A DNA stretch of 64,000 nt, taken from Yuukianura sp. NJ FZ-2021 (Eukaryota). Position numbers and translations under genes: made by a program. The stretch spans positions 8,742,001-8,806,000 of the forward strand of contig CM102284.1 of assembly GCA_046563655.1 (NCBI GenBank). The letters run 5' to 3'. The notes beneath the pieces are model-generated. The model was not told the DNA's origin, searched no databases, and was given only the letters and a program-made list of their open reading frames with translations. Positions 37,485 to 64,000 of this stretch are shown here, one piece after another; within the stretch, counting starts at the first letter, position 1, and each line of letters begins with the position of its first letter.

Positions 37485-37608
37485 ATTTAACATTCTGAAT
37501 TTATGATTACTTTTAATAGGTTAGGTGCTATTCTGGTAGTAATGAATGAGTATAGTTGGCTTGTCTAATTTAATAATAAAGAAAAGCTAACCTATGTGCT
37601 ACTGCTGT

Positions 37609-38796
37609 CTATTCGTGGTAAAAAACTGTCGTTCCCTCATACTCTTTCAACGTACTGTGTGTGGCAGTGAGGATCTGCATATTTAGATCCTCAACAACAT
37701 GCTCAGGAAGTTTTTTCCACATTCGATCTAGGTTAGCAAACATTGAGTGGTACTTGAGTGACGAAGGCGTTGTCTGTGTGTCATCTGAAGTTTTTACAGT
37801 TTGAAGTTGATGCCTCTTAAGTTCCACAAAATTTGACAAGGATTCGGCCAACTTCTCTGACGTGTCCGCTTTGCGTTTGCGAGATGCCTGATGAAAGTTA
37901 CAGATAACTTTAATTATCTAACCTATGTAATACTAGAACGCTATATGGTTACTTACAAAAGCGTAAACTGGAGTAGAAGTAGAATCGGTTTTACGAGGCG
38001 GAGCGTTCTGCTGTGTCGATTGTCCAGGCTCAGATGGAGATGCCAAAGTTTGTAAAGAATTCTGGGAACATTCCTGGTCTACGTCGAATAGGCCAATTTC
38101 GTCAGGGGTGTTTGGAGGAGAATATTCAGTATCGACAGAATCAAGCGTCCTAATAGTACAGACGGGATATTTAACGTGATTATTAGACGTTATAGCATTT
38201 GGTCGATAGGTTAGGTTCAGGTAGGTTAGGCTAACCTTCGGGCCGGTTTAGATTCAAGAAGGAACTTCATTTCCTCCCATAACTCCCAGTCTGTGTTCGA
38301 TTCGGTTGTGGTAGCTTCGTCGTTGTCATTCGTTCCATCGTCCAGTTCAGCCGGTTCACCGGATTTGCCCTTCTTCTTCTTGTTTGACTTGTTCCGATAT
38401 CGTAGGCATTGACGCATAGACCTCCAGGCGCGCTTGCAGTCAGACTCTGCAAAGTAGAAAAAATAGGTTATTATTTTAGAACAAAGAAAAACAATCGGAA
38501 ATAAATAAGCTAAACGAGGTTTTGGTTCGTATATGCACTCGGATTCTAATAAATAACTACTAACCTATGCTGCGTGTATCTTCGGTAAAGACTACAGTTA
38601 TGATTTTATTTTTATACTTACCCGATTCGGATAATGTCCTTGCCACTGATTCCCAGGCAGCTGTTTGAGCTAAATTATTCTGATGATCACCGCTAGTGAG
38701 ATCCCATAAGCAGGGAAATGACCTGACTTGTCTTGCTAGGTCTCTTTTCTTGTCAGTGTCAAACGATTTCAGTGAACCTGTTTCCTTTTTCCCCAT
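37609..38796 (-). CDS. MADF (Myb/SANT-like) DNA-binding protein of the Harbinger element, 4 exons
   Basis: VRSFPCLWD..HQN...AWESVA..|ESDCKRAWRSMRQCLRY (MADF Trp pattern); W..WEEMKFL motif; BESS-like C-terminal helices; exons join in frame. Confidence 0.88.
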
Positions 38797-41700
38797 ATTA
38801 ATCGGTTAGAACCACTGCACAGGATAATGAAAGAATAATAATTGACAAACTTCTAAGACTATTCTAATTTCTAATCTATCGTAGTTCTATCAAATCAACA
38901 AAAATAATACTTTAATTATTGGGTCAATTTCAAAATTTACAAATTTCGCGGGATGATTTTGCTTTGCCTAGCCAAAAATAATGTCCGGGTAGTTTCTCGA
39001 TTTTGCTAGCAAAAAGAAGTGTTTTTTTGCGTAGGCAAAGGTTTTGGCTAGCAAAAGCGTGTAACGTGTAAACTGTGTGGCAAAATCTCAAACACGCGCA
39101 TGGCAAAATGACCGATTTTGCCAGCATGCGTGTATTGCCTAGGCAAAACTCTGTCCTGTAAACCGGGCTTCAAGGAATCCATTTCAAATATTCAACTATT
39201 AACTCAAGTTTGAAATATTTTATATTTCAATTTATGTTTTCACCGATTTCGAGTTATGATTGCCATGAATTGGTTCAACTGAAGAGAGATTTTGACAGAT
39301 TGGAGTGATTTAAACGAAACTGAGGCTGATTGTGTCCAATTTCAAGAGGAATTTGATGAGAGGGAGATTGGATTCAGTTGCCAAAGGATTGTGGATCAAG
39401 GGCCCTCCATCAACCAACGGAATCCACAATTCCAGTGGAATGGCAACAAAAGACAATCCATAATCCACAATCCACACTCGAATTAAACACTCCACCAATC
39501 ACATGCTCCAATCACATCTCGATCCACTTGAAACAAAATACAAGATTAACCACAAGACATTTAGAATTACACAAAGTATATTTTTAAAAAACAGAACAAG
39601 AATGTTGAGTTTGTTCCAGGTGAGTTAATCCACAGAGGGAAAAATAAGCTTAGAAATTCCACTTGGATGGAACAACAAAAGCAAAAAAGTGGATCTTTTG
39701 AAGAGTCTAAATTATGTTTAATAAAATTAGGATTCAAAGGACCCCTTAAACCCCATTTTCAAAGGGACCCTTAAGGGAACTTTGTTATTTGTGTCTTTTG
39801 TCATTTGATTTAAGCCCTCTGTAGCCAACGCTTTTGAATCCAACACAAAGAACAAGTCTCATGTATTTCCAAAATGGACACTCAAAGGACCAACAAAAAA
39901 TTACACGCAGGTTTCCATTTCTACCGAATTCGCAACGAAATTCAAAATTTTGAAAGTTCCCGCCATTTTGTTGTGGAGTCACGCTGTCTGGTGGGTTTAG
40001 AAGGAAGTTTGAATGGAAGTGTGATGTTTGCTGAATTGTTTTGGACAAAGGTGCTCTGTTCCCCGTGACAAAGGACGATCACATTCTGGGACACTGAAGT
40101 CCCTTAAGGGCCCATTGAGGCCCTTACAAAGACTGGACACACTACAGCATTAGCCTCACTGGCACAATTGACATGAAGAACCGAAGCTAAATGGCAAAGA
40201 CCCAGTGGGACACAAAGGGCCCTCTTATTTATTTTTGAAAAATCCAAGGGAGGGGGCCCTTCGAAGGTGATTCTCTGCAGAATCTTTTGAATTTGGAACA
40301 AAAGCGGAGACACATGAGGTGAAAAGGCCCTTTGTGTAAAGAGAGATCACAAATCCATTCAAAAGACGAGGGAACAACTGCAGCTTCCGCCTCACTTCAA
40401 CCCGCATTACACTCAAACACACTGCAAATCACGATCTGCAAAATTTCACTCGGGAATTTCAAATTGCAAGCATCAGTGAAGGAATTGCAGCACAATTTGG
40501 AGAAAGTTGAGAGAAAGTTTTCACTTTTTGTGAATTAAAAATGGAGTCGGTGGGAACCGTTGAACTTTGAATTGAATTTTTTCCCGGGTGAATTCAAACT
40601 GAGACTGAAAATACCCGGGAGTTTTTCCTCCTTCGACCTGAACCCATCATCTCTTTGTTGAGTTAACAATGCGAGAGAGATGCATTAGGAGAGAATGGAT
40701 GTTGGATGGACATTTGAAAGAGAGGCTAATGGACCCCACAAAAGAAAATCCAAATGGAAACACAATCAATCGAATCTCCAAATTCCAAAACACAAATCAA
40801 AATATGAGCTGCTTTTTTTTAAAAAACACTCACCTTTCAATTTTGAAATTTCAGAAAGTGTGTTTTAAAATTCCAACGTTGAAATGGAACTTGTCTTTCC
40901 TATTTTAGTCTTGTGAGTGTTTGATAAGTTTGCAAAATGAGAGAAAAGAAAGCAGAAGCTGAATGAGGTGGAGATTGGTGTTAATTGAAGTTTCGCTTAA
41001 TTAACTTTTGTTCACTTTTAATTAACTCGCAATTCAACAATTCCCGCTTTCTTGCGGAATTCAAAGACTTTGGACTGAGATTGTGTGGAATTAAGAATTA
41101 AGTGGGCTTTTCACACCTCTAATTACAAAGACTTCCACTGGACTTACAATGGAGTTTCAGAGGGAAATTCAAAGTTTCATTTGGGGGGACTTTGATTCGA
41201 AAGGAAGTTTGGAGAGGCCCTTGAAGTGCCCCCTGCCTCTTCCTTTGCTCCAGTAATTGAGACAACCATCTTCCGAGGGGCCATTGTTCTCCACACAACT
41301 TCCAAGACAATCCCACCTCTGAAACAAAGCAGCCACCACCCACCGCCCCGCCTCAAACTAAACACATCGTGTAATGGGAAATACACACAGCATATGGAAA
41401 ACAATAGACAGCATGTGGGTCAAATCACGACAAAACACACGCCAGATGCAGAGACAAAGAAAACAATTTACACAGAAATTACTTCTTTCGTGGATCAGAA
41501 TCCAAAGTTCACACTTTCCCTCTAATGAGAAAATTTGAGTCAAAGGGCCCAGGTACCTTCAAGGGTACTTCCAAGGGCCCTTAGATGCACAAAAGAAAAG
41601 CAATGTCCATTTGACTCCTTTGTTTTCTCTTTCGAATCAAAAGAAAAGGTGTGATTTAATTCAAATGCAAAAGAAGCATCTTCAACTGCATCTGCATTCT

Positions 41701-44090
41701 GTGTGAAACTGCCCCAGGCATTCACACACTCAAAGTCAAAGGCTTTAATCCACAATGCAGTTTTCTCAGAATCAAAACTGAAATTTTGAAACTTTTTTTT
41801 TTGAAAAAGTGGAAATGTGTTTGAAATGAATGTGCAGTTGGTGGAAGCATTGAAAAGAAAAGAGTGTGAGACTAATGCGTTTGGTTTCATTGTTGATCCA
41901 CTCAATTGAAACTGAATCCACTTTATGAGAAACTGTTTCCCCAAAACAGAAAACAGAACTTATGGATTTCCAGGGGGGCCCTTAGCCACGCCCTGCGTCC
42001 CTTCAACTCCAAATCACTTATGTAATAACATTCATTGGATCCATAAATTTCAGTTGTCATTTTGGATTTTAGGAAGAAAAGATGCACTCTGTCACAACAA
42101 AAGCACAACGAATGTCACTCTCCGCTCACAATTCATCTCCACTTCTGATTGGACATTCGGATGACACAGAGAGAAAGGCGGGAATTGTTACAAAACCGAA
42201 ATTCGGTTTTGTCAAGTGGACCAATCTGTCACTTAATTCAGACGAAGGGTCCCTTGACCCTTGACACAAAACTAACGACACTCCATTCCTCAGAATTCGA
42301 CAGAAAGCGGCAAATCGACTGCAAACTCAACATTTACTTTTGAAGTGAACAAGATGTAAGTTTGAAGGGGTGACGAAAGGAAGTGGATGATTTTGCAGAA
42401 TCCGAAATGCGGGTAGAATCGGTGCGTCCAGTGTTTAGGCGGGAGACAGCCTTAATAAATTGAAAAGTGTCAGGCGGGGAAATTTGAAATATGAATTTGG
42501 CGACATTTCATCCTGTCAAGCGACGAGCAGAAGAAGAGAATGAAAGCACTTTCTCCGCTTTCACTCAAATTCCACGCAGAGAGCGGAGATGGCAGAAATG
42601 ATTTATTACCAATACACTCGTCAAGCACGGAAAACAGCACAAGACAGCCAAATTCAAATTAAACGATTTTTACTCCAAGTTAAAAGATAGCACGTTCTGA
42701 ACATGGTGACCTTGACATGGTTGACCTTTGACCTCCGAAGGGATCGTTGACAGTTTGACCTGGAGGGGACTGTCACCTTAATTCCATTTTCCACCTGCTT
42801 CCAAGGGACACTTAGAGGCCCTTAAGGACGATTATTCATGTAAGCACAATCCACCTTGATTATGTCTGACACAATCCACAATTTAATCCAATCACAAAAC
42901 ACTTTTTAAAAAAGTGGAGGAAGGTCAAAGGTCAAGCATAATTTACAATCAAAAGCTCCATGAAATTTGGACGTTGCTTCCGATGGGAACTCTTGTTCAC
43001 TTCCAGTTGAACCTCCAAAAGACTTTTGAATTTGAAAAGTCTTGGAGTGGGCCCTTGAAGGGCTGTTGTGATTTCGAATGCAAAAAGACGAAGATCGGAA
43101 GGTGAAGTGAGCAAAGGGACCGTGGAAATGCTGGTCGTTTGTTCCACTTGACTGTTGAAAGTGCATTCTGCTTGAGTGGACTCTTTCTGGACACTTAATT
43201 CTGATTACGTAATTAAGTACCCCCCAAAAGAACATTCGGAGGGGGGACTTCGGAGGGAACTCAAAAATAACACTTCAACTCTCAGCAGAAACCAAAAGAA
43301 TCCCACGGATTTTCCCACGCATTCCTCAAATTCCTCCGTTCACACAAAAAACAACAAAATATTTTCAAAAATATTCTTGGGAAAAGAGAAAGTATTTTTT
43401 CCCAGCTTTGCACTTCAAGATCTTCATAAAAATTTTCATTTCATTTTGAAGTTGATTTCATTTTTTGAAAAGATGCGTCTCCCTTCTGGAATTTCTGAAT
43501 CGTGAGAATGGTGATTTCGGGAGAGATGAAAGTGGCCACCAACAGAGAGTGTCACTTGGAATGGAAGGTCATCCAGAGGTCACAGTGGACACTGTTTCAT
43601 TTGAATTCAAATGAAAAATGAATTGTGTCAGGATGGTCTTCCCACAATGGACACAATTCCAATTCTTCCTTAATTCAACCATAACAATGACAATCACAAG
43701 TGAAGGACACTCCATCAACCAACGTCCAAAAAACACACTAAACATTCAAAATGTATCTCAATTTCAATCTTCAAAAAACGAAATTCAAAGACGTTTTTGA
43801 AAAACAGGTTCTGGAAGTTGGACTTTCTTCTGAGCAAAGTTAAAGAAAGCAACATAAATTCATTCTGTTTGAAAAAGGTGCTTGGGAGCAAGAAAATTTA
43901 GTTTGTGTGTCCATTGTTGTTCAAACAAAGTTCAGAAAAGTTGGAAAACAAGGAAAGAAGGATTTATGGACTTTCGATGCAAAAGTTAGCAGAAAAGGAA
44001 AAGTTTTGGAAAATCCAGAAAAGAAATAAAACATTCCATTCTTCATCTTCTGAATTCCACACAAAGTCCATCAAAGAAAGAAGGAGAAAG

Positions 44091-44163
44091 TCCACAATCC
44101 ATTCGAATCCACAATCCATTCGAATCCACAATCCATTCGAATCCACAATCCATTCGAATCCAC
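44091..44163. repeat. 17-bp minisatellite TCCACAATCCATTCGAA x4 (x3 in the mirror copy at 52410-52465)
   Basis: Direct reading of both arms. Confidence 0.9.
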
Positions 44164-44938
44164 CGAACCAAAGTGAGGGAATTTTCAAAAGTTAATCACA
44201 ATGACCTTCGCTTTTCAAATTTCTTAACTTTGGAGAACAGAGAAAGCAGAAGAATGAAATGAAATGGAAAACTTTCGAATCCAAACAGAATTTTCCTTTT
44301 CGTAAACAAAAGTTCAAAAACTTTTCTTTTCATGAAAAACCATAATTCAAAGTTTAAATTTTGAGTTGATTCTTTTGTTTCAAAAAACAAAACCCAGCGC
44401 AGAACTTTCCAAAGAAGAACAAAAGTGGAATTCATAAAATTAGTTTTGTTCTGGAGAGAAAATTCCAATTAAATCAATTCAACTCTGCGGAAGATTCTCT
44501 TTATTTTCTCTCTTCTGATTCGTCCATCGCTTTCACCGCCAAAACTCAAATCTTTTGTGTTTTTTCTTCATAAAAAGCACTAATGCTTTGATGTGAAGTG
44601 AATGTTGGCGTGTATCGTGTGTTAAATGGGCTGTCATGTCAGTCCAGACTCCACTTCATCCATGCAGCCATTTATCTCCAGCATCCTTCATATCAAAAAC
44701 TCACAACATTCTCAATTTCAGTCTGCAGATTTCAAAATCCAAAAACATTTTGATCTAAGTTGTTCTGGAGGAATTTCGAAATGTTTTTAGTTTCAACTTT
44801 TCTTAAATTGTAATCAGATTTTGTTTTAAGTGGATTCGATTGTTTGACTCCCTCCGTCGAACCTTGATGGTCTGAAGGGCGTCTCGCACGGTTAGTTTTG
44901 TGGAGGGTGCAGTTGTCTGGGTGCAGAAGATCTGGTTA

Positions 44939-45017
44939 CCGTAAAACTTCTAATAAAATCTCTCCCCCATAAAAATTTCTTAAAGGATGCAAGGGGCCTC
45001 TAATATTACTTTTACGG
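44939..45017. mobile_element. 79-bp TA-flanked MITE remnant (Tc1/mariner-pogo type ends)
   Basis: TA|CCGTAAAA ... TTTTACGG|TA; absent from the mirror position (about 51625-51640); a similar end TACCGTAAAACTTCT occurs at about 24257. Confidence 0.6.
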
Positions 45018-45374
45018 TAATGACGGCTGGTCGAAGTGAATTGTCTCTGAGTTGAGAGGCGGTTGACATTCTATTTGATGCAAACCACAAAAGATCTCAA
45101 GTGACAATCGGAGTCTCGTGATTGATTCAATCCAACAATTTCTAAAGACATTTAAATCTCATCCGCCTCAGCTCCAGTAATCACAAAAACACAAAGGAAA
45201 ACGGGATCTGAAGAGTCACTCGATTAAAAAAGTAAAAAAAATCGAAAAAAAGCTGCTTGGTCACTTCAGAATTGATAAAAAAATGGATTCTAACATTTCT
45301 GCTGTTTTCCTCCATTTCTCTCCGGTTTCAGACCAGAATGAGAGTGTACCTTGATGTTAGGCTGAGGTGTATGT

Positions 45375-45541
45375 AGTTGTAAGAGCCCTTAAGGGCCGAT
45401 TAGAGTCCCTTTGACAAAGATCCTAAACAAAGGTCACATTCCTCCAGTGACCTCTTCCTTAAGTCCCTCCAAAAAACAACGACGCCAAGCTGGCTGGGAC
45501 ACTTCCAAGGGCCCCCTTGGGCAAAGTACTCACAAAAGACA
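45375..45541. promoter_or_regulatory. Conserved non-coding element, left copy (candidate enhancer)
   Basis: Near-identical reverse complement of 50671-50836 while both flanks are diverged; contains ACAAAG Sox/TCF-type words and CCCTTAAGGG. Confidence 0.6.
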
Positions 45542-48500
45542 GTAGAATTCCACAAAAATCTAACTAAGAAACTCCACGTTTTCAGTTTTTATTTTAATTT
45601 GAATTCAAATTCAAACAACATCATCATTACTTTCTCTCATTTTCCGTTTTCTGTCCCATTTTCTATTCAAACTTTTGTTAAAATTGAAAAAAGAAGAGAA
45701 CGTTATTGTAATTTGGAAGCTGCTTTCTCTTCCATTTCTGCTTTCTTTTCCTTCGGATTCTTCTGCTATCTTTTCCTTTAGGATTCTTTTGCTTTCTTTC
45801 CATTTCCATTGTAAAGTTCCATTTGTGCTGGATTTGTATTTTTGAGGAAAGAGGTTCCTTTGTGCTTGCTTTCTGCCTAGGTGCCTTTGGAATTGTAAAC
45901 TTTCTCTTTTTCTCGTCATCATCCTCAGGAGAAAGAAAAAAGAAAAGAGGAGGACAATGGGATGCGCAGTCTCTGGCTCACAACACGCTTTCTCTCCCTC
46001 CATCTTCTCTTTTTAGACGCAACAAAAAGCAGAAAAGAAGAAAAAAGAGAAAGTAAAAGTAAAAAAACAACAATGGGAAGCTCTTCCTTCTCTTCCTATA
46101 CAAAAACATACTCTACCTGGATCCACATCTCATCAGCACATTCGCACAACTTTTCTTGATTAGTTTTTTTCTTCTTCTTTTCAATTCTTCTTTCGTTTCA
46201 TTGTAGTTTGTCTTCTTTTGTTGAAAAACGAGCCTGGAACTACTGGAATTACAACGTTAATTTTAATGAAGGTTTCAAATTTTTACACAATTGAAAATTT
46301 TGAAAAAAAAAAGCTGTTGGAGGAAGGTTAACGACCAATTTTAGGTTAAATGGAAGCAATTTGATGTAATTGTGTTTAAATTGGAGCAATAAAGAGGAAG
46401 TTGGTTTTCCTCTCTTCTTTTGTTGGCAGAGAAGAGAACAATTGAAATTGGACTTTGGGAGGAAATAGGTTAGGTTGTTAGGTTAAAGTTAGGTTGTAAA
46501 TGGTTCCAACTGTTGATTGTTTACGATGTGATAAACGGCATGTTCTTTGATTTTAGTACAACTTTATGACTCCATCAATTCAACAACTAAAAATTTCAGA
46601 GTCCATCGCCTGTTGTTCAAACCCAAAAATTTTCATGCTCCAGAGATGAAAAACGAAGACATTTTTGAAATCCCTCTTTGTTTTTTGGATTGTGTGAAAA
46701 TAATGGGATCTTTGCTGAGCTGAACAATTGAGGTGACAGAAAACTCTTTTTTGAAAAATTGAATTGAAAAGAAAGGAGTTGTGGAGATAAAGGGGAGAAA
46801 AGTTCCATTTTCTGGTGAAAGTTGAAAGGAAAGTGAAGTGGGGATTAGAAAGGACTCTCCCTGGAGTTGACATCTCACTAGCCACTCACTCTTCAACAGG
46901 CGCCCTCCTTTTTTCAAAATTTCGGTTTTTTAAAAAGTTCAAAAAAAGTTTTCTCCTTTCACCAATTGTCAAACAGACAAAGTTTGTTCAAAACACTCAA
47001 AACATCAATTTCCAAAAAAAAATGAGAAAAAGAATGGAAAAAGTTTGAAGTGACTGGATAACGCATGAGATGCGTTTGAAAAACTTTACAGCTGAACAGT
47101 TTTCAAAAATCAGGTTAAAAACAAATTCAAAAATTTTGTTTCGAAAACTTTTCTTATACATGTGCGGGGATCTTCCAAAACTAATTTTAAAACTCAAAAT
47201 TCGTATGATTGAATCTAATTTTTTTTCATTCGACGTTTAGAAAAACACAAAAAGTGAAAGTCATGCTGCCATTTTAGAAAAAAATCCAAGTCATTTTCAC
47301 TGTTAAAAAGAAGAACTGTGAGACAGAATTCTTTTGTTCTTCAAATCTTTTGTTTTCTCTTCACTCCTGCTCTTTCTCACCAAAAAAAGTTTCAGTTTAG
47401 TTTTTTGTGAAATTTTGAACCATTTCCAAGTTCATTTTTCTTGTGGTCCAGTAGGTTTCTCATGCTGAGAATCCTAAACTTAATTAAAACGTCAGTAACG
47501 CCACGTTTCATGGACATCACACATTCAACATTTACAAAAACACAAATGTACACTTGGAATGATGCAATTTGAAAACAACCGCAGAGAAACAGCAGGTATT
47601 TCAGCTACTGAATTCAACAGAATCCTGCTTCCTCCTCAGACTAAATTGGGATCATGACTTGGAAATTCTTTTGGAAATGGAATCTACTCTTCCTTTGTTT
47701 GGCTGTTGTGACCAGTAGCTTCTCAAAAATAAACTTTTTTCATTCCCACAAGCGTCCAAATGCTCAAATGATTGTTCCATCTTGATTCAGCACTTTTCAG
47801 TTTCAACATAACATAACAATGGGTTAATGAAACAGCAGACGAACAACCGTTGGGGACAAGAAACCATTTTGCTTCGAATCCATCCGATTCGGACCTTGAT
47901 TACGACTTTTTCATTTTTTAAAACTTTTTTTCTTTTTAGAAAAACCGGTTTTGTTCCAAAAAAGAATGGAGTTGAATAAGAATTGAATCCATTCGAATGA
48001 TGAAATGGGCATTTCTTTTGTTCTGGTTCACTCAATGTGTGTGGGAGTAAAGAGAAGCCATTAGAACAAGAACCAGTTTAACCCCCCTTCAATTTCCTAA
48101 TTGAAATTTTAATCACCCGCCACTTTCACTTGAGAGAAAGTCAATTGTGCAGAAGGGGGAGGACAAAGGAAGGGGTGACCTTACCCCCACTTGACCCCTC
48201 ACGTTTGATCCCCCTCGAACCCCGCAACCCCCTCACTTTTGATCCCCTGAACCCCGCAACCCCACAAGTATCACGACACAATCCTCCTCTCTTTTCCAGA
48301 AACTAATTTGAACCAAGTTCATTTCCTTGTGGAGGTGGACACTCTTTGTGTGGGAAATTGAAGGAGGGCCCTTGAAGGGCTTCTGCCTCACCTCCATTGT
48401 CCACTCAATTAAGACACTCCTAAGGGCTCCCATTTCAAAATACACGCTCATTCTTGTTCAGTCACTAATTACTAATTAACGCACCACTTAATTACAAAGT

Positions 48501-50235
48501 TACTTTTGAATTAACTTTGAGTAATTTGAAATTAGAGTTGTTATGATTTGTGGGTGGGGGTTGGGGGCGTGTCCTCGGAGAAAGCTTTTCCGTGTGTCCA
48601 AATGGACTTTCTCCTGCTGACCACGCCCCTTTTCTTTGTCTGTCCCTTGGCCACGCCCACGTACACTTAAAGTCACTTAAGGGCCCCCCAACGTGTTGAC
48701 TCTACTTCCGGTATAATCTGATTTATAACAAACAGAAAACAAAAATAATCCACTAGCCACAACTTTCTTCCAAAATTTTTCAAAATTTGAGTATGTACTG
48801 GAACCAGAAAATGTAAAAACATAAAACTTTTTTTTACGTTTTAGTATAAAAAGTTTCCAGTTTCAAAAACCTTTTCAAAATTTCAGAAAAACAAGTTTGA
48901 GTTTTGTGAAGCGTATTTAATTTGTTCTAAATTAAGAGATTTACATTTTTTTTTCATTCTCGATGCTCGTTATCTCACCTGAGCTCACTTCGAGCTCTTT
49001 TTTTCCTTGTGAAACCCTAGAAAAAAGGACTTTTTAAAAGTCTAATTCTGAATTTGTAAATTCTAAATTCTAAAAAAATGTGAAAAGAGTCATTGAGTCA
49101 AATCGGAATTGGTTCTAAGCTTTCTCCTCTCTAATCCCTCTTCTTCCCCTCTCTCGACTAAAGCTAACAAGGCACAACCAAAACTCTCTATTTTTCTTCT
49201 CTTTCAAATCAACTTTCTCTTTTTACTTTTTTTCAACCTCATTATTCCAATGGATAATGAGAGTGTTAAGGCTTCACGGATTTTAGCCGGGAATTAACTT
49301 TTTTTAAAAACTCTTTTTAAAAAAAGTAAAATTCTCATTAAAAACAGTTTCTTTTTTTTTATTACAACCAAACTTTTCACTCTTTTCTAACTTTAGACAG
49401 AAACAAGGCGAATATCGAAAGAAAAGTTTTCCAAAATTTTTAAATTAGCAAAATTTCGAAAATGAGTTCAAAATTTGTAAACTCCGCCTTTTGAGTTTTC
49501 TAGGCGTGTGATTGAACAAGAGCGTTCCTGAAAATCCAAGTGGGTGAGCTTTTTTCTTTCTCGGTGTGTCAAATTCCTCCCTTTTGTTCTTTTTTTTTCT
49601 TGCGTCCAGACGCTAGGATTCGATCACACTCCCATTGTTCTCGAGAAACCAAGCCATGAAATGTGGAGCACACGAACAATACAGTTAAACATGTAATAAA
49701 AATAATTAATATAATGTATAATTTAAACAGTTGAGTCATGTTCTGCACTAACTGACCGGAGAGACGCAGCTTAACAATGGAAGTGAAGAGCATATGGATC
49801 CAATTCAGATCGGTTCAAGATGTTTAACTCCTTCAAAGTCAAAATTCAAATGAAACGAGAGACAGTTTGAAAAGCGTCAATTGAAATTTTGAAATGAGAT
49901 CTCTGGTTTATGATTTCATTTCCTCCAAAGCACACAGAACTTGTTTCTTTTCATAAATTTTAAGACTCTTTTGTCATGCAACATACAAAAGACACATTTC
50001 ATTTCAAAATTTCATTTTCACTTATCAAAAACCCCGCTCTCTCCATGGATCTGATTGGATCCATCAAATTCAAAACTTTCACAAAAGATTCAACAATATT
50101 CATAACTCTATTCACTCCTTTTCATTTTTTGAAAATTCAAATTCAGATTTTCAAAAAACTGAAAAATGAATCATAGTGAAAGCTTAGACTCAAATGGACC
50201 AATAACATAATGACCAATTTTACTTTTTTTGCTTC

Positions 50236-50333
50236 TTTTTTTGAAACTGAATGATTTTTGTAGTAAGAGAACCAAAATTTTTTTGAAACTGAATGATTTT
50301 TGTAGTAAAAGAACCAAATTTTTTTTGAAACTG
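50236..50333. repeat. 42-bp tandem repeat, about 2.3 copies
   Basis: TTGAAACTG starts at 50241, 50283 and 50325. Confidence 0.85.
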
Positions 50334-50670
50334 GCCATTGTTAAGAATGAATTGAACGTTTTGAGTTTTCTCTTTTTGTGACACAAAGAGTAACCTTGCG
50401 GTAAACCTGTCAAAGTTTTCTGTTTTTGTTCTCTCCCGAAATGGTGTGACCTGATTTATTGAAAACTCAGTTTTGTCAATGGATCTTTTTGGAAACACAC
50501 CTTCGTCAGTTCCGCTGGGTTAGCCAAATTCCATTGTTAGTTTCTCCAAAAAGTAAGGTGTTGGAAATGTGTTTTTGGTTCATTCACAGAAACAGATGCC
50601 ATTCCGTTGTCCCTGAACACAAATTCCTCCGAGCCCTTAAGCTCTGTTGGACATGGAATGAAGTGCGGTG

Positions 50671-50836
50671 TGTCCTTTGTGAGTACTTTGCCCGAGGGGG
50701 CCCTTGGAAGTGTCCCAGCCAGCTTGGCGTCGTTGTTTTTTTGGAGGGACTTAAGGAAGAGGTCACTGGAGGAATGTGACCTTTGTTTAGGATCTTTGTC
50801 AAAGGGACTAATCGGCCCTTAAGGGCTCTTACAACT
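50671..50836. promoter_or_regulatory. Conserved non-coding element, right copy (candidate enhancer)
   Basis: Mirror of 45375-45541. Confidence 0.6.
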
Positions 50837-51643
50837 TCTACCTTCAACTACAACTCTCATTCCAGCTAAAAACAGGAGAGAAACAGAGGAATGAGCAGAG
50901 TAGAATGGTGCACATTGTGTTTTTAGATTCAAAATTAAGTGAAATTCCCACACTCATCAAACACGATCTGCTGTCACTTTCTTTCTCTTTGGACAAAAGT
51001 TTCAATTTAAAACACAACTGGACGCGAGATGACCAAGCACTTTGTGCTTGCCAGTATTCAGCATTCTAGAATGCTGAATGCTGTTTGAACAGAACGCCAA
51101 CATTTGGAGAACAATTTAGAAACTGGAGGTTGAATTTAATGATTTGTTTTGGTTTGAATAGACTCTTTGTTTTAGTCTTTTCCATTCTTCTGTCCATTTT
51201 CAAAATCTTTTCAAACTTTTCAAAAACTTTTCATCCAGACTGCTTTTCTTATGCAGAAAATTAATGGAGAAGAAACAATGAAATTCTGGGGGGAGAAATG
51301 GCACAGAACACAAAAGATTTGGAACGCTGCTTTTTGTGTTTTAAAGTGCAACTGATTTATTTTTGGATCGATAAATGACCAAAATGTTCAAATTCAATTT
51401 CGGATTTATTTTTTCTTGGACTCGTTTAATTCGAGTGGCTCTTGAGTCTAATCCAGTTTTTTATTTTTGTGGGTTGCTGCATTTGAAAAGAAGATTTGAA
51501 TCGCTTTAGAAATTGTTTCGACTCAATCAAAACTGAAAAGACTCAACTCGAGATGTTTTGTGGTTTGGATTAAATGTGGATGTCAACCGCCTGTCAACTG
51601 CTCAATCCAATTCACTTCAACCGTCATTATGCATCTACTTTTT

Positions 51644-54600
51644 TGCATCCAGACAACTGCACCCTCCACAAAACTAACCGTGCGAGACGCCCTTCAGACC
51701 ATCAAGGTTCGACGGAGGGAGTCAAACAATCGAATCCACTTAAAACAAAATCTGATTACAATTTAAGAAAAGTTGAAACTAAAAAGATTTCGAAATTCCT
51801 CCAGAACAACTTAGATCAAAATGTTTTTGGATTTTGAAATCTGCAGACTGAAATTGAGAATGTTGTGAGTTTTTGATATGAAGGATGCTGGAGATAAATG
51901 GCTGTTGGGATGAAGTGGAGTCTGGACTGACATGACAGCCCATTTAACACACGATACACGCCAACATTCACTTCACATCAAAGCATTAGTGCTTTTTATG
52001 AACAAAAAACACAAAAGATTTGAGTTTTGGCGGTGAAAGCGATGGACGAATCAGAAGAGAGAGAAGAAAGAAGAGAATCTTCCGCAGAGTTGAATTGATT
52101 TAATTGGAATTTTCTTCTGCAGAACAAAACTAATTTTATGAATTCCACTTTTGTTCTTCTTTGGAAAGTTCTGCGCTGGGTTTTGTTTTTTGAAACAAAA
52201 GAATCAACTCAAATTTTAAACTTTGAATTATGGTTTTGCATGAAAGGAAAAGTTTTTGAACTTTTGTTTACGAAAAGGAAAATTCTGTTTGGATTCGAAA
52301 GTTTTCCATTTCATTTCATTCTTCTGCTTTCTCTTTTCTCCAAAGTTAAGAAATTTGAAAAGCGAAGGTCATTGTGATTAACTTTTGAAAATTCCCTCAC
52401 TTTGGTTCGGTGGATTCGAATGGATTGTGGATTCGAATGGATTGTGGATTCGAATGGATTGTGGACTTTCTCTTTCTTCCTCCGATGGACTTTGTGTGGA
52501 ATTCAGAAGATGAAGAATGGAATGTTTTATTTCTTTTCTGGATTTTCCAAAACTTTTCTCTTTTCTGCTAACTTTTGCATCGAAAGTCCATAAATCCTTC
52601 TTTCCTTGTTTTCCAACTTTTCTGAACTTTGTTTGAACAACAATGGACACACAAACTAAATTTTCTTGCTCCCAAGCACCTTTTTCAAACAGAATGAATT
52701 TATGTTGCTTTCTTTAACTTTGTTCAGAAGAAAGTCCAACTTCCAGAACCAGTTTTTTGAAAAACGTCTGAGCAGTTTCGTTTTTTGAAGATTGAAATTG
52801 AGATACATTTTGAATGTTTAGTGTGTTTTTTGGATTCGGTTGATGGAGTGTCCTTCACTTGTGATTGTCATTGTTATGGTTGAATTAAGGAAGAATTGGA
52901 ATTGTGTCCATTGTGGGAAGACCATCCTGACACAATTCATTTTTCATTTGAATTCAAATGAAACAGTGTCCACTGTGACCTCTGGATGACCTTCCATTCC
53001 AAGTGACACTCTCTGTTGGTGGCCACTTTCATCTCTCCCGAAATCACCATTCTCACGATTCCAAAATTCCAGAAGGGAAATGCGTCTTTCCAAAAAAAAA
53101 AAAAAATATGAAATCAACTTCAAAAATGAACTGAAAATTTTTATGACGGTTGTACAACACCGAACTGGGAAAAACTACTTTCTCTTTTCCCAAGAATATT
53201 TTTGAAAATATTTTGTTGTTTTTTGTGTGAACGGAGGAATTTGAGGAATGCGTGGGAAAATCCGTGGGATTCTTTTGGTTTCTGCTGAGAGTTGAAGTGT
53301 TATTTTTGAGTTCCCTCCGAAGTCCCCCCTCCGAATGTTCTTTTGGGGGGTACTTAATTACGTAATCAGAATTAAGTGTCCAGAAAGAGTCCACTCAAGC
53401 AGAATGCACTTTCAACAGTCAAGTGGAACAAACGACCAGCATTTCCACGGTTCCTTTGCTCACTTCACCTTCCGATCTTCGTCTTTTTGCATTCGAAATC
53501 ACAACAGCCCTTCAAGGGCCCACTCCAAGACTTTTCAAATTCAAAAGTCTTTTGGAGGTTCAACTGGAAGTGAACAAGAGTTCCCATCGGAAGCAACGTC
53601 CAAATTTCATGGAGCTTTTGATTGTAAATTATGCTTGACCTTTGACCTTTTTCCACTTTTTTTAAAAAGTGTTTTGTGATTGGATTAAATTGTGGATTGT
53701 GTCAGACATAATCAAGGTGGATTGTGTTTAAATGAATAATCGTCCTTAAGGGCCTCTAAGTGTCCCTTGGCAGCAAAGCAGGTGGAAAATGGAATTAAGG
53801 TGACAGTCCCCTTCAGGTCAAACTGTCAACGATCTCTCCGGAGGTCAAAGGTCAACTATGTCAAGGTCACCATGTTCAGAACATGCTATCTTTTAACTTG
53901 GAGTAAAAATCGTTTAATTTGAATTTGGCTGTCTTGTGCTGTTTTCCGTGCTTGACGAGTGTATTGGTAATAAATCATTTCTTCCGTCTCCGCTCTCTGC
54001 GTGGAATTTGAGTGAAAGCGGAGAAAGTGCTTCCATTCTCTTCTTCTGCTCGTCGCTTGACAGGATGAAATGTCGCCAAATTCATATTTCAAATTTCCCC
54101 GCCTGACACTTTTCAATTTATTAAGGCTGTCTCCCGCCTAAACACTGGACGCACCGATTCTACCCGCTTTTCGGATTCTGCAAAATCATCCACTCACTTT
54201 CGTCACCCCTTCAAACTTACATCTTGTTCACTTCAAAAGTAAATGTTGAGTTTGCAGTCGATTTGCCGCTTTCTGTCGAATTCTGAGGAATGGAGTGTCG
54301 TTAGTTTTGTGTCAAGGGTCAAGGGACCCTTCGTCTGCATTTAAGTGACAGATTGGTCCACTTGACAAAACCGAATTTCGGTTTTGTAACAATTCCCGCC
54401 TTTCTCTCTGTGTCATCCGAATGTCCAATCAGAAGTGGAGATGAATTGTGAGCGGAGAGTGACATTCGTTGTGCTTTTGTTGTGACAGAGTGCATCTTTT
54501 CTTCCTAAAATCCAAAATGACTGAAATTTATGGATCCAATGAATGTTATTACATAAGTGATTTGGAGTTGAAGGGACGCAGGGCGTGGCTAAGGGCCCCC

Positions 54601-57600
54601 CTGGAAATCCATAAGTTCTGTTTTCTGTTTTGGGGAAACAGTTTCTCATAAAGTGGATTCAGTTTCAATTGAGTGGATCAACAATGAAACCAAACGCATT
54701 AGTCTCACACTCTTTTCTTTTCAATGCTTCCACCAACTGCACATTCATTTCAAACACATTTCCACTTTTTCAAAAAAAAAAGTTTCAAAATTTCAGTTTT
54801 GATTCCGAGCTAACTGCATTGTGGATTAAAGCCCTTGATGGAGTGTGTGAATGCCTGGGGCAGTTTCACACAGAATGCAGATGCAGTTGAAGATGCTTCT
54901 TTTGCATTTGAATTAAATCACACCTTTTCTTTTGATTCGAAAGAGAAAACAAAGGAGTCAAACGGACATTGCTTTCTTGTGTGGATCTAAGGGCCCTTGG
55001 AAGTACCCTTGAAGGTACCTGGGCCCTTTGACTCAAATTTTCTCATTAGAAGGAAAGTGTGAACTTTGGATTCTGATCCACGAAAGTAATTTCTGTGTGA
55101 ATTGTTTTCTTTGTCTCTGCATCTGGCGTGTGTTTTGTCGTGATTTGACCCACATGCTGTCTATTGTTTTCCATATGCTGTGTGTATTTCCCATTACACG
55201 ATGTGTTTAGTTTGAGGCGGGGCGGTGGGTGGTGGCTGCTTTGTTTCAGAGGTGGGATTGTCTTGGAAGTTGTGTGGAGAACAATGGCCCCTCGGAAGAT
55301 GGTTGTCTCAATTACTGGAGCAAAGGAAGAGGGGCACTTCAAGGGCCTCTCCAAACTTCCTTTCGAGTCAAAGTCCCCCCAAATGAAACTTTGAATTTCC
55401 CTCTCAAACTCCAATTGTGAGTCCAGTGGAAGTCTTTGTAATTAGAGGTGTGAAAAGTCCACTTAATTCTTAACTCCGCACAATCTCAGTCCAAAGTCTT
55501 TGAATTCCGCAAGAAAGCGGGAATTGTTGAATTGCGAGTTAATTAAAAGTGAACAAAAGTTAATTAAGCGAAACTTCAATTAACACCAATCTCCACCTCA
55601 TTCAGCTTCTGCTTTCTTTTCTCTCATTTTGCAAACTTATCAAACACTCGACATACTAACTTGGAATGACAGGTTGCATTTCAAGGTTGGAATTTTAAAA
55701 CACTTTTTCTAAAATTTCAAAATTGAAAGGTGAGTCTTTTTTTAAAAAAAAAGTTGCTCATATTTTGATTTGTGTTTTGGAATTTGGAGATTCGATTGAT
55801 TGTGTTTCCATTTGGATTTTCTTTTGTGGGGTCCATTAGCCTCTCTTTCAAATGTCCATCCAACATCCATTCTCTCCTAATGCATCTCTCTCGCATTGTT
55901 AACTCAACAAAGAGGTGGGGGATTCAGGTCGCAAGAGAAAAAACTCCCGGGTATTTTCAGTCTCAGTTTGAATTCACCCGGGAAAAAATTCAATTCAAAG
56001 TTCAACGGTTCCCACCGACTCCATTTTTAATTCTCAAAAAGTGAAAACTTTCTCCGAACTTTCTCCAATTTGTGCTGAAATTCTTTCAATGTTATTTAAA
56101 ATTTGAAACTCCCGCGTGAAATTTTGCAGATCGTGATTTGCAGTGTGTTTGAGTGTAATGCTGGTTGAAGTGAGGCGGAAGCTGCAGTTGTTCCCTCGTC
56201 TTTTGAATGGATTTGTGATCTCTCCTTCACAAAGGGCCTTTTCACCTCATGTGTCTCCGCTTTTGTTCCAAATTCAAAAGATTCTGCAGAGAATCACCTT
56301 TGAAGGGCCCCCTCCCTTGGATTTTTCAAAAATAAATAAGAGGGCCCTTTGTGTCCCACTGGGTCTTTGCCATTTAGCTTCGGTTCTTCATGTCAATTGT
56401 GCCAGTGAGGCTAATGCTGTAGTGTGTCCAGTCTTTGTAAGGGCCTCAATGGGCCCTTAAGGGACTTCAGTGTCCCAGAATGTGATCGTCCTTTGTCACG
56501 GGGAACAGAGCACCTTTGTCCAAAACAATTCAGCAAACATCACACTTCCATTCAAACTTCCTTCTAAATCCACCAGACAGCGTGACTCCACAACAAAATG
56601 GCGGGAACTTTCAAAATTTTGAATTTCGATGCGAATTCGGTGGAAATGGAAACTCGCGTGTAATTTTTTGTTGGTCCTTTGAGTGTCCATTTTGGAAATA
56701 CATGAGACTTGTTCTTTGTGTTGGATTCAAAAGCGTTGGCTACAGAGGGCTTAAATCAAATGACAAAAGACACAAATAACAAAGTTCCCTTAAGGGTCCC
56801 TTTGAAAATGGGGTTTAAGGGGTCCTTTGAATCCTAATTTTATTAAACATAATTTAGACTCTTCAAAAGATCCACTTTTTTGCTTTTGTTGTTCCATCCA
56901 AGTGGAATTTCTAAGCTTATTTTTCCCTCTGTGGATTAACTCACCTGGAACAAACTCAACATTCTTGTTCTGTTTTTTAAAAATATACTTTGTGTAATTC
57001 TAAATCTCTTGTGGTTAATCTTGTATTTTGTTTCAAGTGGATCGAGATGTGATTGGAGCATGTGATTTGAGTGTTTAATTCGAGTGTGGATTGTGGATTA
57101 TGGATTGTCTTTTGTTGCCATTCCACTGGAATTGTGGATTCCGTTGGTTGATGGAGGGCCCTTGATCCACAATCCTTTGGCAACTGAATCCAATCTCCCT
57201 CTGATCAAATTCCTCTTGAAATTGGACACAATCAGCCTCAGTTTCGTTTAAATCACTCCAATCTGTCAAAATCTCTCTTCAGTTGAACCAATTCATGGCA
57301 ATCATAACTCGAAATCGGTGAAAACATAAATTGAAATATAAAATATTTCAAACTTGAGTTAATAGTTGAATATTTGAAATGGATTCCTTGAGTTAAATCT
57401 GAATGTTACGTTATTTTAATTTGCTGAGGTCAACAGTTGACCTCTTCAGCAGATGATTTCTGCATAAGCTAGCTTCAGTCGAAGCAATTCTTGTCCATCC
57501 TGATTCCAAATCGGTGAAAACATAAAATAAAACTTGTAATATATGAACCTTGAAAATGGAGATTAGCATTTTCAAAGTTGGTTTCAAATTTTCAAGTTGG

Positions 57601-60600
57601 TTAAAGTTTGAGTGCTAAGTTGGTTGACATTGCTAATGTCAACAGTTGAACTTTGACCTCTTCAGCAGATGATCTCTGCATAAGCTTCTTGTAATGGATT
57701 TCATTGTTGCTTTTCTGCCTTTCTCGCTTTAACAAAGTTAAGAATGGAAGAATGAATTCAAAAGAACAAGAGAAGGATCACAAAATTTCAACAAAAGCCA
57801 TTTTCAAAAAAGAGGGAAATTGAAATTTTGAAACATTTGTGTCGTTTTGGAGGAATCGATTGAAAAAGAGTTTTGTTTTTTGGAATGAAGTGAAGATGTG
57901 TTTTTGATTGGTGAGAAGAATGGAGAGAGACAAAGATGTTGAACAAAAGGGAGGGGGTTTGTGAGGGGCGTTTTTGTGCAGATCTTGGTTTGGATGCTGC
58001 GATGGACCAAACTGCGGTGGGTTTTGGTGGAGATCGGCCGAGGGAGGCCCCACCCCTTCCCACTCCCTCCCAACTCCAAAGCCACTCTGCTTCAGTCATC
58101 GTCCAGCCACCACCAAGTCAACTACTCATAGTTTGTTCAAACAAACTCTGTTCAAACAGAAGTGTTAAAAACAGTAGTTTCCGAGTGACAATTGAGCAAT
58201 TGGTGCAGTTGTCTAAACTTTCTTTTCAAATTTTGAAATTCCTTTGAATTTCGTGAGAACAGAGTCGTGCAAAACCAGTTTTTTGGGTGAAGTGGCTTCT
58301 TGTGAGGATCAAATCCACTTAAGCGGCAAGTCATTTTAATTCCTTTTGAATTCTAATTTATGAAAACATTTGTCACTGTCCGAACTTTTTTGAACCGTGG
58401 GAACGAAAGGCAGGTTTAAATTTTGAATCTCTCAAAATCTGAAACTCCACTTTTCAGATTCCTGTTTAAATTCTTCCATTTCCAACCAAGTTTAAAGTTG
58501 AGATGAAATTGCAGTTTTCGGTGGAAAGTAGAGCAGTTATTTCTGGAATGTGAAAAGAGTTCTGTTCTTTTGTGAATCAATTGACACTTGAGATTCAATT
58601 AGTTTTGAAAGTGGACAAACACTCGACTGGAGAAAAGTGGAAGGAGAGTTGGACGCTGTTTTCAGCGATTTGATTTCAGCGATCTATTTGTTCAAACAAA
58701 GTGAATAACAACTCAATTTCTATTAATTTCAAACAATAGATTCACATGCGTAATTCAAGAAACCTCGGAATCGGAGCCACCCTCACGCAAATCAAAAATT
58801 AACACTTCCCCCTCCATCCCCCGGGAATTTTCAAATTCATTTCATCCGAAATCAAAAGATTTAAATTCAACCGCCGAATTTCAAATTCCTTCAAAAGATG
58901 AACGAAGAAGGACTAAACTACAATTCCCACCACCGTCTGAGCCACCACGAACTGAGTCAGCGACTGTCGCATGCGCATTTGGGCGGAAGTGGGGCCAGTG
59001 GTGGGGCAGGACTCATGTCACTTGCATCTCAAGCATTCCCAGCATCAGCGTCCCACTTGATGTCCCACCATCTCAACTCCATGAGCCACCACCACCATTC
59101 TCTGCACAGCAACAGTGGTGGGGCAGTTCATCTGACTCCTCCATCCACCTCTTCCTCTGGCTCTTCGTGTGCTATGAGTCCTGGTGGGTCGGTGGGGCCG
59201 AAGAAGGTGGGGCGGGAGGTGGTGGGTTCGTTGGTGGGTGGGGACGACCACATCAAGCGTCCGATGAATGCGTTCATGGTGTGGTCTCGCATGCAGCGGC
59301 GCAAGATTGCGCAGGAGAATCCGAAGATGCACAATTCAGAGATCAGCAAGCGCCTGGGTGCGGAGTGGAAGTTGCTTTCGGAGGACGAGAAGAGGCCCTT
59401 CATCGACGAAGCGAAGCGCTTAAGGGCCCAGCACATGAAGGACCATCCAGACTACAAGTACCGACCACGCAGGAAGCCCAAGACCCTTAAGAAGGAGGGG
59501 TACCCTTACTCATTCCCGTACCCTTCAGTACCCATGGACGCTCTCAGAGGTACTTTTTTACTTTTAATTTCAGTCACACCTTTGCAACTATTTCTGTCTT
59601 TTCGCAGTCCTGCAATGTACTTTGTGTTTTTATTTTTGTGTGTAAATTGTTGTACTTTTGCTCAGTGGGGTTTTGGTTTTTTAAACTGCGAGGGTCCTTC
59701 GCTTCCTTTGACTTTCTGTTGGAATTTCCTCTGTGGAGATTCAGAGGGGCCCTTAAGTCCCCTTCTTCCTTGAATCTTTGGATTTCTAGCCAGCGTGGCT
59801 CCTCTCTCTCTGGAATTCTTTGCTTCTGAATTCAAGTGCATTCCAATTCTATACAAAGTCAATGCACAGAGAAAACTGGTTGAATTAGACACGCTTGAAA
59901 CCAAACTCAAATATTTACGTGGTTTCTTTTGTGTTTCTTGCAAACAGAAATTGCGAAAAAATGAGAATTTCCAAAACGCATAGTTTACAGTACTTAGTAG
60001 ATGAAACTATTTTTTGAAATTATGATTTTTTTTTGTTCTGTTTCCCAACTGTTTTCAACCCTCCGCATCCTTGTCATTGCTTGAAATGTTCAATTGTTGT
60101 TTGAATGTTTAAATTTCTGTTGATCTGCATGTGAATTGTGTTTCTGGTTTTACACATGTAAGTTTCAAGTTGTTTTTGGAATTGTCAATTTTTGTGCCAC
60201 AAAAGAATGACGACAAAGTTTGTTCCTGGCAGATTCTGAATCTAATTTATGAAAAAGTGATACATTCCTCCTTTCTAAACTGAAACACTTTGGGAATATT
60301 CATAAGAGGTTTCGGCGGAAGGGGGGCATTGTCATGTCCATTGTCATTCCATGTCAACTTCTGGCCATAATGATCCAGTGCCCAAAGTCTCTTTTGTGTC
60401 ATTCACAATTGGATTGATGGGTCCAGCTAAAAAGATCTCTGCGTGGAGATAGTCAATTGAATGCCAAATTCAATTATTTTGAATCTCCCTCTACTTGGAT
60501 CTCCATTCAACATTTAACACACGAGTGTCTAGAGATGAGTCCACCACTTCCACAATTCAATGTCAACCGAATCCGTGTCACTCGACCTCCCATTCCAACA

Positions 60601-63600: not shown

Positions 63601-63989
63601 AGTCTCCGAAGAGCAGTTTGCATGAGGATTCCATGGGTGGGACTCCTGAGTTGCCCCACGGGGTGGCTTCCAAAGGCCAGCAGTTGAGTCATCGTGGGAC
63701 GCCGGAGGATCAAGTGGGGCTGTTGTCCGGTGGGACTCCAATGACTTCTGCCGGTGGTTTTCCGCCCCACTTCTCGTCCTTGGCCAGTTACTACTCTCAG
63801 TTGAACCACGTTGGTGGGTTGTCCGGTGGGACTGGCCCCACCTTGGCCCACATCTCTCAGTACTCCCACCCTCCCCTGCCAGGCAGTGCACAGAGCCCTT
63901 ATGGGCCCCTTCACCCCACACCCGCTGCCCAGCCACCCACCGCCCCCTCATCGTCTAACGACTTTCGAAGGGCCCTGCCTGTAATATTT
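51644..63989. repeat. Right arm of the giant inverted repeat (about 12.3 kb)
   Basis: Reverse complement of 29121-44925 without the Harbinger and with an extra ~215 bp at about 57470-57685. Confidence 0.97.
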
Positions 63990-63992
63990 TGA
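58898..63992 (+). CDS. Sox21b: SoxB HMG-box transcription factor, Sox21b/Dichaete-like, copy B (exons 58898-59549, 62956-63240, 63544-63992; 461 aa)
   Basis: Same exon lengths as copy A, intact splice sites, identical HMG box, three amino-acid differences found (T/A, A/S, P/S); stop TGA. Confidence 0.9.
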
Positions 63993-64000
63993 AAAACGAA

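What the first reader, a model, noticed from the sequence alone, without database searches (positions are those of the whole stretch)
44925..51644. Stepwise decay of arm identity toward the axis: the duplication looks old, the arms recently homogenised
Seen: near-identity stops at 44925/51644, yet recognisable but heavily diverged mirror homology continues. Examples are 45020-45110 TGACGGCTGGTCGAAGTGAATTG..GGCGGTTGACAT..CAAACCACAAAA versus 51545-51628, AACAATTTCTAAAG at about 45134/51505, and GAGTCACTCGATTAAA at about 45213/51430. A near-perfect block follows at 45375/50836, then about 5.1 kb of unique spacer. Inference: neither a single recent duplication nor an allelic misassembly easily gives three identity strata; an ancient inverted duplication with conversion limited to the outer arms does.
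Basis: partly seen in the sequence, partly recalled or inferred. Interest (0 to 1): 0.8.

Follow-up and report, generated by a model that had tools for sequence, protein, structure and literature searches.

The report
Mirror-duplicated Sox21b gene kept alike
A springtail-like genome carries two intact, back-to-back copies of the developmental gene Sox21b that are about 97.5% identical over 12 kb and stop matching at the very last codon, which likely marks an old duplication whose copies keep overwriting each other, in a genome where the sister gene Dichaete was not found.

Summary
Two inverted arms (29122-44928, 51641-63988; 2.2-2.3% substitutions) are followed inward by collinear mirror homology at 18-23% substitutions, which beats all 300 shuffles and is a single pair in the genome, and by a 167-bp block at 1.2%.

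Outer identity ends inside the last codon; each copy has its own stop and an unalignable 3' flank. Contig depth over the arms is 1.5-2.7 times that of unique flank and the spacer is about single-copy, so allelic misassembly is unlikely.

Best reading (0.68): an old duplicate held near allelic divergence by gene conversion, eroding at its edges, the pattern described for Drosophila amylase. The between-species test could not be run.

Corrections: the decay is patchy, not stepwise; conversion is not confined to the outer arms; 605 bp of the 'unique' spacer has a 96% inverted copy just outside the window. No Dichaete gene was found in this genome. That one arm is an overwritten Dichaete locus is possible but untested.

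The parts
29122..44928 (.). Left arm (12.1 kb without the transposon)
   Evidence: Self-BLAST; 143 of 6285 and 126 of 5715 aligned columns differ from the right arm
29118..34215 (-). Sox21b left copy; exons 34215-33564, 30154-29870, 29566-29118; 461 aa; ends TTC TAA
   Evidence: Spliced frame open with GT/AG sites; Pfam HMG_box E 1e-28; 305 identities in 551 columns to the Orchesella dallaii protein with the same C-terminus (right copy). Splicing is predicted; no RNA holder was listed
35509..39169 (+). PIF/Harbinger-type DNA transposon in the left arm only; 3-bp target duplication TCA, 17-bp terminal inverted repeats (15 of 17 match)
   Evidence: DDE_Tnp_4 hits; ends; contigs of runs X1 and X2 join 35505 to 39170 and X3 has no depth over 35875-37875
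45018..45241 (+). Block a, left: old mirror homology
45298..45374 (+). Diverged outer flank of block b (mirror 50837-50899)
   Evidence: 14 mismatches in 62 columns; 0 of 300 shuffles
45375..45541 (+). Block b, left: 167 bp, GC 49%, likely cis-regulatory (inferred from composition and motifs)
48085..48689 (+). Block c: 605 bp, GC 47%, motif-dense. Its inverted 96% copy c' lies beyond the window end, 1.55 kb downstream of the right gene (65545-66146 in continued window numbering; G000:C2 about 8807545-8808146)
   Evidence: depth bin 48003-48669 about twice its neighbours in X1 and higher still in X2
50671..50836 (-). Block b, right
51410..51629 (-). Block a, right
51641..63988 (.). Right arm (12.35 kb: 7.3 kb upstream DNA, the whole coding sequence and both introns)
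57437..57652 (+). 216 bp present in the right arm only (local duplication)
   Evidence: an X1 contig skips it
58898..63992 (+). Sox21b right copy; exons 58898-59549, 62956-63240, 63544-63992; 461 aa; ends TTT TGA

Best explanation
Two intact Sox21b genes sit head to head in 12-kb inverted arms that differ by 2.2-2.3% and stop matching inside the last codon; they are likely an old duplicate whose arms are repeatedly re-copied onto each other by gene conversion, while the edges have likely escaped and decayed. Shown: two copies, intact frames, the boundaries, an inner stratum about nine times more diverged than the arms, unalignable 3' flanks, roughly doubled contig depth. Inferred: the arms pair within the chromosome, repair copies one onto the other and holds them near allelic divergence; conversion stalls where homology breaks (the end of the coding sequence outside, a ~78-bp length difference beside block a inside); blocks b and c are regulatory modules kept alike by short conversion tracts, by selection, or both. 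Predicted outcome: nearly one protein from two loci that share 7.3 kb of upstream DNA but have different 3' UTRs and different distal DNA.
For: (1) Block a is collinear, starts 90 and 12 bp from the arm ends, has JC 0.21 against about 0.023 for the arms, and is a single pair. (2) Block b (1.2%) lies inside 23%-diverged homology at its mirror position; a random templated insertion would not land there. (3) The outer edge is inside the last codon and each copy continues with its own Phe codon and stop; a chance breakpoint there gives that 3% of the time, apart from the low odds of breaking at that codon. The 3' flanks do not align (9 of 60 and 167 of 300 shuffles). (4) Arm differences are a mosaic: 0.8% background and islands at 24% over 6% of the length (two-state fit, lnL -1149 vs -1288). 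The background matches allelic differences of 0.2-1.8% and the islands match block a. (5) Both genes are constrained: 3 non-synonymous against 11 silent differences (stop codon included), pN 0.003, pS 0.034. (6) Edge-elevated divergence is the pattern that Osada and Innan tie to decaying conversion (PMC2588116, passages).
Against: No orthologous pair from a related species was available, so the defining test is missing. The arms differ only 1.3-2.7 times more than alleles in X3 and X4, which a young duplication would also give. Clustered differences also occur between alleles of single-copy DNA (49184-49198, 47108-47173; 24126-24143), so the islands (mean 10 bp) are not diagnostic. Of the 32 arm variants checked from the truncated read tables, 27 equal the other arm's base and 5 match neither; collapsed contigs cannot show shared polymorphism. 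Folsomia candida, Allacma fusca and two Orchesella species gave one Sox21b entry each. Earlier notes suggest this genome makes inverted duplications often (unchecked), which raises the prior for complex recent events.
Confidence: 0.68

Rival explanations
1. One recent long overwrite instead of continuing conversion: an old diverged pair was re-copied once over 12 kb (a long repair tract or template switch that began beside block a and rejoined at the conserved C-terminal codons), and the arms have diverged freely since.
For: Both edges are sharp and sit at places of old homology. Arms, b and c have similar divergence (2.3%, 1.2%, 3.2%). Divergence per 250 bp does not rise towards the arm ends.
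Against: b and c need separate events or strong selection. The mosaic of 0.8% tracts and 24% islands and identical runs up to about 525 bp (permutation P < 0.005) fit tracts of different ages, though allelic clustering weakens this.
Confidence: 0.17
2. A young de novo inverted duplication of Sox21b, seeded by an older small inverted repeat (a, b) that never included the gene.
For: Arm divergence is close to allelic divergence. Other springtails show one Sox21b entry. Many palindromes are noted in this genome.
Against: It needs a breakpoint inside the last codon plus a chance Phe-stop (3%). It leaves b at 1.2% inside 23% homology unexplained.
Confidence: 0.1
3. Assembly artefact: two alleles joined in opposite orientation.
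For: 2.2-2.3% is near the allelic range. No listed contig spans the whole structure.
Against: Median depth of the listed contigs, arm over flank: 1.52 (X1) and 2.66 (X3); spacer over flank: 0.95 and 1.29 (the tool warns depth is no copy number). Contigs bridge the right inner junction (X2, X3) and the left outer junction (X4, another study). Other contigs end at the forks 29151 and 63988. No N in 419 kb.
Confidence: 0.02
4. For blocks b and c only: no conversion; they are ultraconserved enhancers held by purifying selection in both copies while their flanks decayed.
For: Both are GC-rich (47-49% against 34%) and motif-dense, with sharp ends.
Against: 1-3% divergence is at the allelic level while adjacent homology is at 18-23% or lost; introns and upstream DNA of the arms are equally alike without an obvious constraint.
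Confidence: 0.3

Closest known systems
Drosophila duplicated blocks under conversion with decaying edges, Amy and Bob (Osada and Innan 2008, PMC2588116; passages read)
   Same: Two-copy duplicate, low divergence in the middle, raised divergence at the edges, identifiable block smaller than the real one.
   Different: There, orthologues prove the age; here they are missing. Here the block is 12 kb with 7.3 kb of upstream DNA and a 3.4-kb intron, and one edge is abrupt at the last codon.
Capitella teleta Dlxa/Dlxb (PMC3199776; abstract and one discussion section read)
   Same: Closely linked inverted pair of a developmental transcription factor with conversion proposed. The section also names engrailed/invected, Hsp70, amylase and trypsin.
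   Different: Tail to tail, and conversion is limited to part of the homeobox and nearby intron. Here the pair is head to head and the whole gene with its upstream DNA is alike.
Gene-bearing palindromes: human Y (Rozen 2003, seen only as cited) and the 11 palindromes of Folsomia candida (PMC5490193; passages)
   Same: Inverted arms with a spacer, carrying intact genes; F. candida is also a springtail.
   Different: The F. candida authors found a wide Ks range and argued against concerted evolution; no Sox gene appears in the passages seen. Y arms are far longer and more alike (recalled).
Insect Dichaete-Sox21b-Sox21a cluster (PMC1166547; parts 2 and 3 of 7 read)
   Same: Four SoxB genes; two adjacent genes of the Dichaete/Sox21b class.
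   Different: Here both adjacent genes are Sox21b with introns, no intronless Dichaete was found, and the Sox21a-like gene is on another contig.
Inversions with inverted duplications at their breakpoints (PMC1885836; search listing only)
   Same: c and c' flank the right gene block in inverted orientation with sharp ends.
   Different: c coincides with a GC-rich, motif-dense module, which a random staggered break need not; no outgroup shows the earlier order.

Membership tests
Sox21b (arthropod SoxB2) | HMG box of the Dichaete/Sox21b class (Ile at position 23, Leu/Ile at 18 in PMC1166547) | tested here: met
   Ile is present. Position 18 is Met, as in the other springtail and several crustacean proteins. 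Up to 94% identity over the matched part to named insect proteins.
Sox21b (arthropod SoxB2) | Sox21b-type tail after the box, an intron just after the DNA-binding domain, conserved extreme C-terminus | tested here: met
   Tail matches the insect proteins, one named sox21b; intron at 59550; C-terminus identical to O. dallaii over the last 10 residues.
Dichaete | Intronless gene with the Dichaete-type tail | tested here: not met
   Both copies have two introns and the Sox21b tail. A named Dichaete query found no separate gene among 14 matches of 23 scored candidates.
Duplicate under concerted evolution | Paralogues more alike within than between species, with the duplication older than the split | not testable with these tools
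   No close relative's genome is held; the one 14.6-kb unnamed relative contig shared only the HMG exon.
Duplicate under concerted evolution | Older homology beyond the near-identical block | tested here: met
   Block a and the flank of b on the inner side. On the outer side the flanks are unalignable, so age there is inferred from the last-codon edge.
Duplicate under concerted evolution | Shared polymorphisms or mosaic tracts between copies | tested here: inconclusive
   Only collapsed contigs and truncated tables were available.
Dispersed repeat or foldback transposon | Multiple genomic copies of the inner blocks or arms | tested here: not met
   a, b and c gave two places each; 52005-57400 gave the two arms plus three short hits. 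Counts are lower bounds.
Structured RNA family (Rfam) | Match at the gathering score | tested here: not met
   0 matches in 28000-64000.
PIF/Harbinger transposon (left-arm insert) | DDE_Tnp_4 transposase, short terminal inverted repeats, 3-bp target duplication (features recalled) | tested here: met

The most novel reading that the evidence does not exclude
One arm is the former Dichaete locus. Successive conversion from neighbouring Sox21b replaced a segmentation gene as old as arthropods with a copy of its paralogue, right up to their shared C-terminal motif, leaving Dichaete's position and 3' DNA. An inversion bounded by c and c' then turned the ancestral tandem pair head to head. Sox21b would now do Dichaete's work in this springtail, as Sox21b-1 does in spider segmentation.
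Probability: 0.1. Interest if true: 0.8.

Novelty: new member of a known kind. Interest (0 to 1): 0.45.

Why it matters
It is an unusually readable case of conversion acting on a developmental regulator: coding sequence, introns and 7 kb of upstream DNA stay shared while the 3' ends are private, so two loci could differ in regulation without differing in protein. It also warns that 2% divergence can badly underdate a duplicate. The lack of a detectable Dichaete beside a doubled Sox21b gives a direct test of whether the two genes can replace each other in hexapod segmentation. The mechanism itself is known.

Tried and rejected
No RNA holder was listed for 44500-52000; this says nothing on expression.

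No earlier scan finding looked like the left arm in other genomes, and a word search for the idea found none.

It shares only the HMG exon with this locus and reaches 7.2 kb upstream of the box, too short and too distant to test a, b or c.

A Dichaete-tail protein search showed no named springtail among the 120 listed of 746 hits. This is inconclusive on whether springtails as a group lack Dichaete.

Old homology was sought and not found around c (126 and 123 of 300 shuffles), between the arm end and a, between a and b, inside b, in the core spacer and in the 3' flanks.

Runs X2 (very uneven depth) and X4 (anomalous depth) were left out of the depth ratios. One repeat-bearing X3 contig and the X4 contig that crosses the left junction were left out of the allelic figures. 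Only the longest contigs are listed by the tool. No listed contig bridged the left inner junction, but the tables were cut.

Rfam gave nothing. A simple tandem origin that includes c in both copies was considered and rejected: c has no trace downstream of the left gene. No structure prediction was run, as it would not bear on the question.
Full report
**Setting.** The window is G000:C2:8742001-8806000 in a 98.7-Mb genome of 22 contigs. The nearest named relatives of the gene in the arms are from Orchesella, Folsomia and Allacma, so the animal is probably a springtail. That is an inference from homologues.

**The observation.** Self-BLAST finds inverted arms at 29122-35505 plus 39170-44928 against 51641-63988, and inner mirror matches at 45018-45241/51410-51629 (block a) and 45375-45541/50671-50836 (block b). 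Block a scores 182 against 35.4 +/- 5.8 in shuffles, with 0 of 300 reaching it; the best of 326 unrelated windows scored 57. It has 18% substitutions (JC 0.21). Block b has 1.2% and carries a 23%-diverged outer flank (0 of 300 shuffles). The arms have 143 of 6285 and 126 of 5715 differing columns. Searches of the own genome return only the two mirror copies of a and of b. The strata are therefore real, but they are patchy and not a staircase.

**What the arms hold.** Each arm has a three-exon Sox21b gene, transcribed away from the axis, with canonical splice sites, an open 461-codon frame and the C-terminus seen in O. dallaii. The gene model is predicted; no RNA run was listed. The copies differ at 14 codons: 3 non-synonymous and 11 silent, the stop included. 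Exons differ by 0.8-1.1%, introns by 2.6-3.3% and the 1.2 kb upstream by 2.7%. With 119 kb fetched downstream and 60 kb upstream, the arms do not continue. Identity ends inside the last codon: left TTC TAA, right TTT TGA. The 3' flanks align no better than shuffles (9 of 60; 167 of 300). Random sequence supplies pyrimidine plus stop at such a point 3% of the time.

**Other parts.** The left arm alone has a 3.66-kb Harbinger-type transposon with a TCA target duplication; its interior has low or no depth in the three runs of sample S1, so it is likely polymorphic. The right arm alone has a 216-bp local duplication. Block c (48085-48689) has a 96% inverted copy c' at 65545-66146, beyond the window end, so c and c' flank the right gene. 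Its ends are sharp. Blocks b and c are GC-rich (47-49% against 34%) and hold several Sox/TCF-, homeodomain- and Sp-like words (the labels are recalled). Enhancer function is inferred and untested.

**Is it real?** Contigs of four public runs (two samples, two studies) were laid on 44001-64000 and 21201-41200. Among the listed longest contigs, median depth over the arms is 1.52 (X1) and 2.66 (X3) times that of unique flank, and over the spacer 0.95 and 1.29 times (X2 and X4 left out; the tool warns depth is no copy number). If the arms were two alleles, they would sit at flank depth and the spacer at half. Contigs bridge the right inner junction (X2, X3) and the left outer junction (X4, a different study), and others stop at the forks 29151 and 63988. 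No listed contig spans the whole structure. Single-copy contigs differ from the assembly by 0.2-1.8%, so the arms are only a little more diverged than alleles.

**How it most likely works.** Arms at near-allelic divergence, flanked by collinear homology nine times more diverged, with a near-identical island inside that older stratum and an outer edge at the last codon, are what an old duplicate under gene conversion leaves as its edges escape. Osada and Innan describe this edge decay for Drosophila duplicates such as Amy (PMC2588116, passages). Inside the arms, differences are over-dispersed (index 3.9 and 4.8 against 0.96 in permutations) and fit a 0.8% background with 24% islands over 6% of the length. 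This is suggestive only, because alleles of single-copy DNA show clusters too. I put repeated conversion at 0.68, one recent long overwrite of an old pair at 0.17, a young duplication seeded by a small old repeat at 0.10 and misassembly at 0.02.

**What counts against it.** The between-species test is missing. F. candida gave one Sox21b locus with two isoforms, and A. fusca, O. dallaii and O. cincta one entry each; identical proteins can collapse in that collection, so this is weak. The one long unnamed relative contig shared only the HMG exon. Shared polymorphism could not be read from collapsed contigs. Earlier notes on this genome list many inverted duplications (144 fit the look-up, 8 shown, unchecked), so a palindrome here is not rare in itself.

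**The SoxB census.** An HMG-box family search (22 matches of 42 scored candidates), a Sox21b query (15 of 22) and a named Dichaete query (14 of 23) found four SoxB genes: the two Sox21b copies, a SoxNeuro-like gene about 260 kb away and a Sox21a-like gene on C1 (these two labels rest on recalled motifs). No separate Dichaete was found; the assembly may be incomplete. Insects have four SoxB genes with intronless Dichaete upstream of Sox21b (PMC1166547, parts 2-3). [quoted passage not shown] Inverting the block between c and c' would put the two genes in tandem, as Dichaete and Sox21b are in insects, and a crustacean Dichaete-type protein ends in a motif like that of Sox21b. Hence the bold case that one locus is an overwritten Dichaete (0.10). 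A plain loss of Dichaete with an independent Sox21b duplication explains the census equally well, and block a is far too young to date from the Dichaete/Sox21b split.

**In print.** Searches for Dichaete with Collembola and with Folsomia found 0 papers. Sox21/SoxB with Collembola/springtail found one irrelevant paper. None of the 25 listed of 575 papers held Dichaete or Sox21b. The library lacks most subscription journals, and I opened no supplements; palindrome tables of the F. candida paper could bear on novelty. Close precedents are the Capitella Dlx pair, Drosophila Amy and F. candida palindromes, for which the authors argued against concerted evolution.

**Verdict.** Real, and more informative than first described, but a new member of a known kind. 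Interest 0.45; about 0.8 if the Dichaete overwrite were shown.

Noticed in passing
window 52005-57340 and 61343-62676 (mirror 39210-41200 and 30539-31872), run X4: In the run from the other study, contigs over these non-coding parts of the arms have depth of about 50-250 against 3-10 elsewhere, with go-back joints such as 57910 to 55738; exons are not raised. G000 holds only the two arm copies of 52005-57400. Amplification artefact or a population-specific amplification; unexplained.
   Followed up: partly
window 28622-64000 and on to 65550: The word TTAAGGGC (either strand) occurs 19 times in this 37 kb, mirror copies counted twice, against 21 in the other 382 kb; the related word AAGGGCCC also clusters near the SoxNeuro-like gene. 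Possibly a regulatory motif of developmental loci.
   Followed up: partly
window 29085-29150: Just after the left stop codon lies a short imperfect repeat of the last codons.
   Followed up: no
window 35509-39169: Likely polymorphic Harbinger-type insertion about 1.3 kb upstream of the left start codon; it could change expression of that copy or block conversion locally.
   Followed up: partly
G000:C2:8512426-8514402 and C1:6631386-6632037: The SoxNeuro-like gene has an intron inside its HMG box, although SoxN is described as intronless in Drosophila; the Sox21a-like gene is on a different contig from Sox21b.
   Followed up: partly
window 18511-21174 (-): An 887-codon open frame built of ~105-bp tandem repeats encoding a coiled-coil-like protein; no convincing Pfam family.
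   Followed up: no
window 7854-12451: Three tandem copies of a ~1.6-1.7-kb unit at 71-81% identity, each with a 181-197-codon frame on the minus strand; the one scanned had no Pfam hit.
   Followed up: no
window 1870-2086, 13214-13459, 23322-23694, about 24330-24620: A 70-bp palindromic tandem array, a 250-bp hairpin, and two dispersed repeat elements with high contig depth.
   Followed up: no
L005 (beyond the window end; 66500-70400 in continued numbering): Tandem small membrane-protein-like genes begin about 450 bp beyond c'; already noted by an earlier finding.
   Followed up: no
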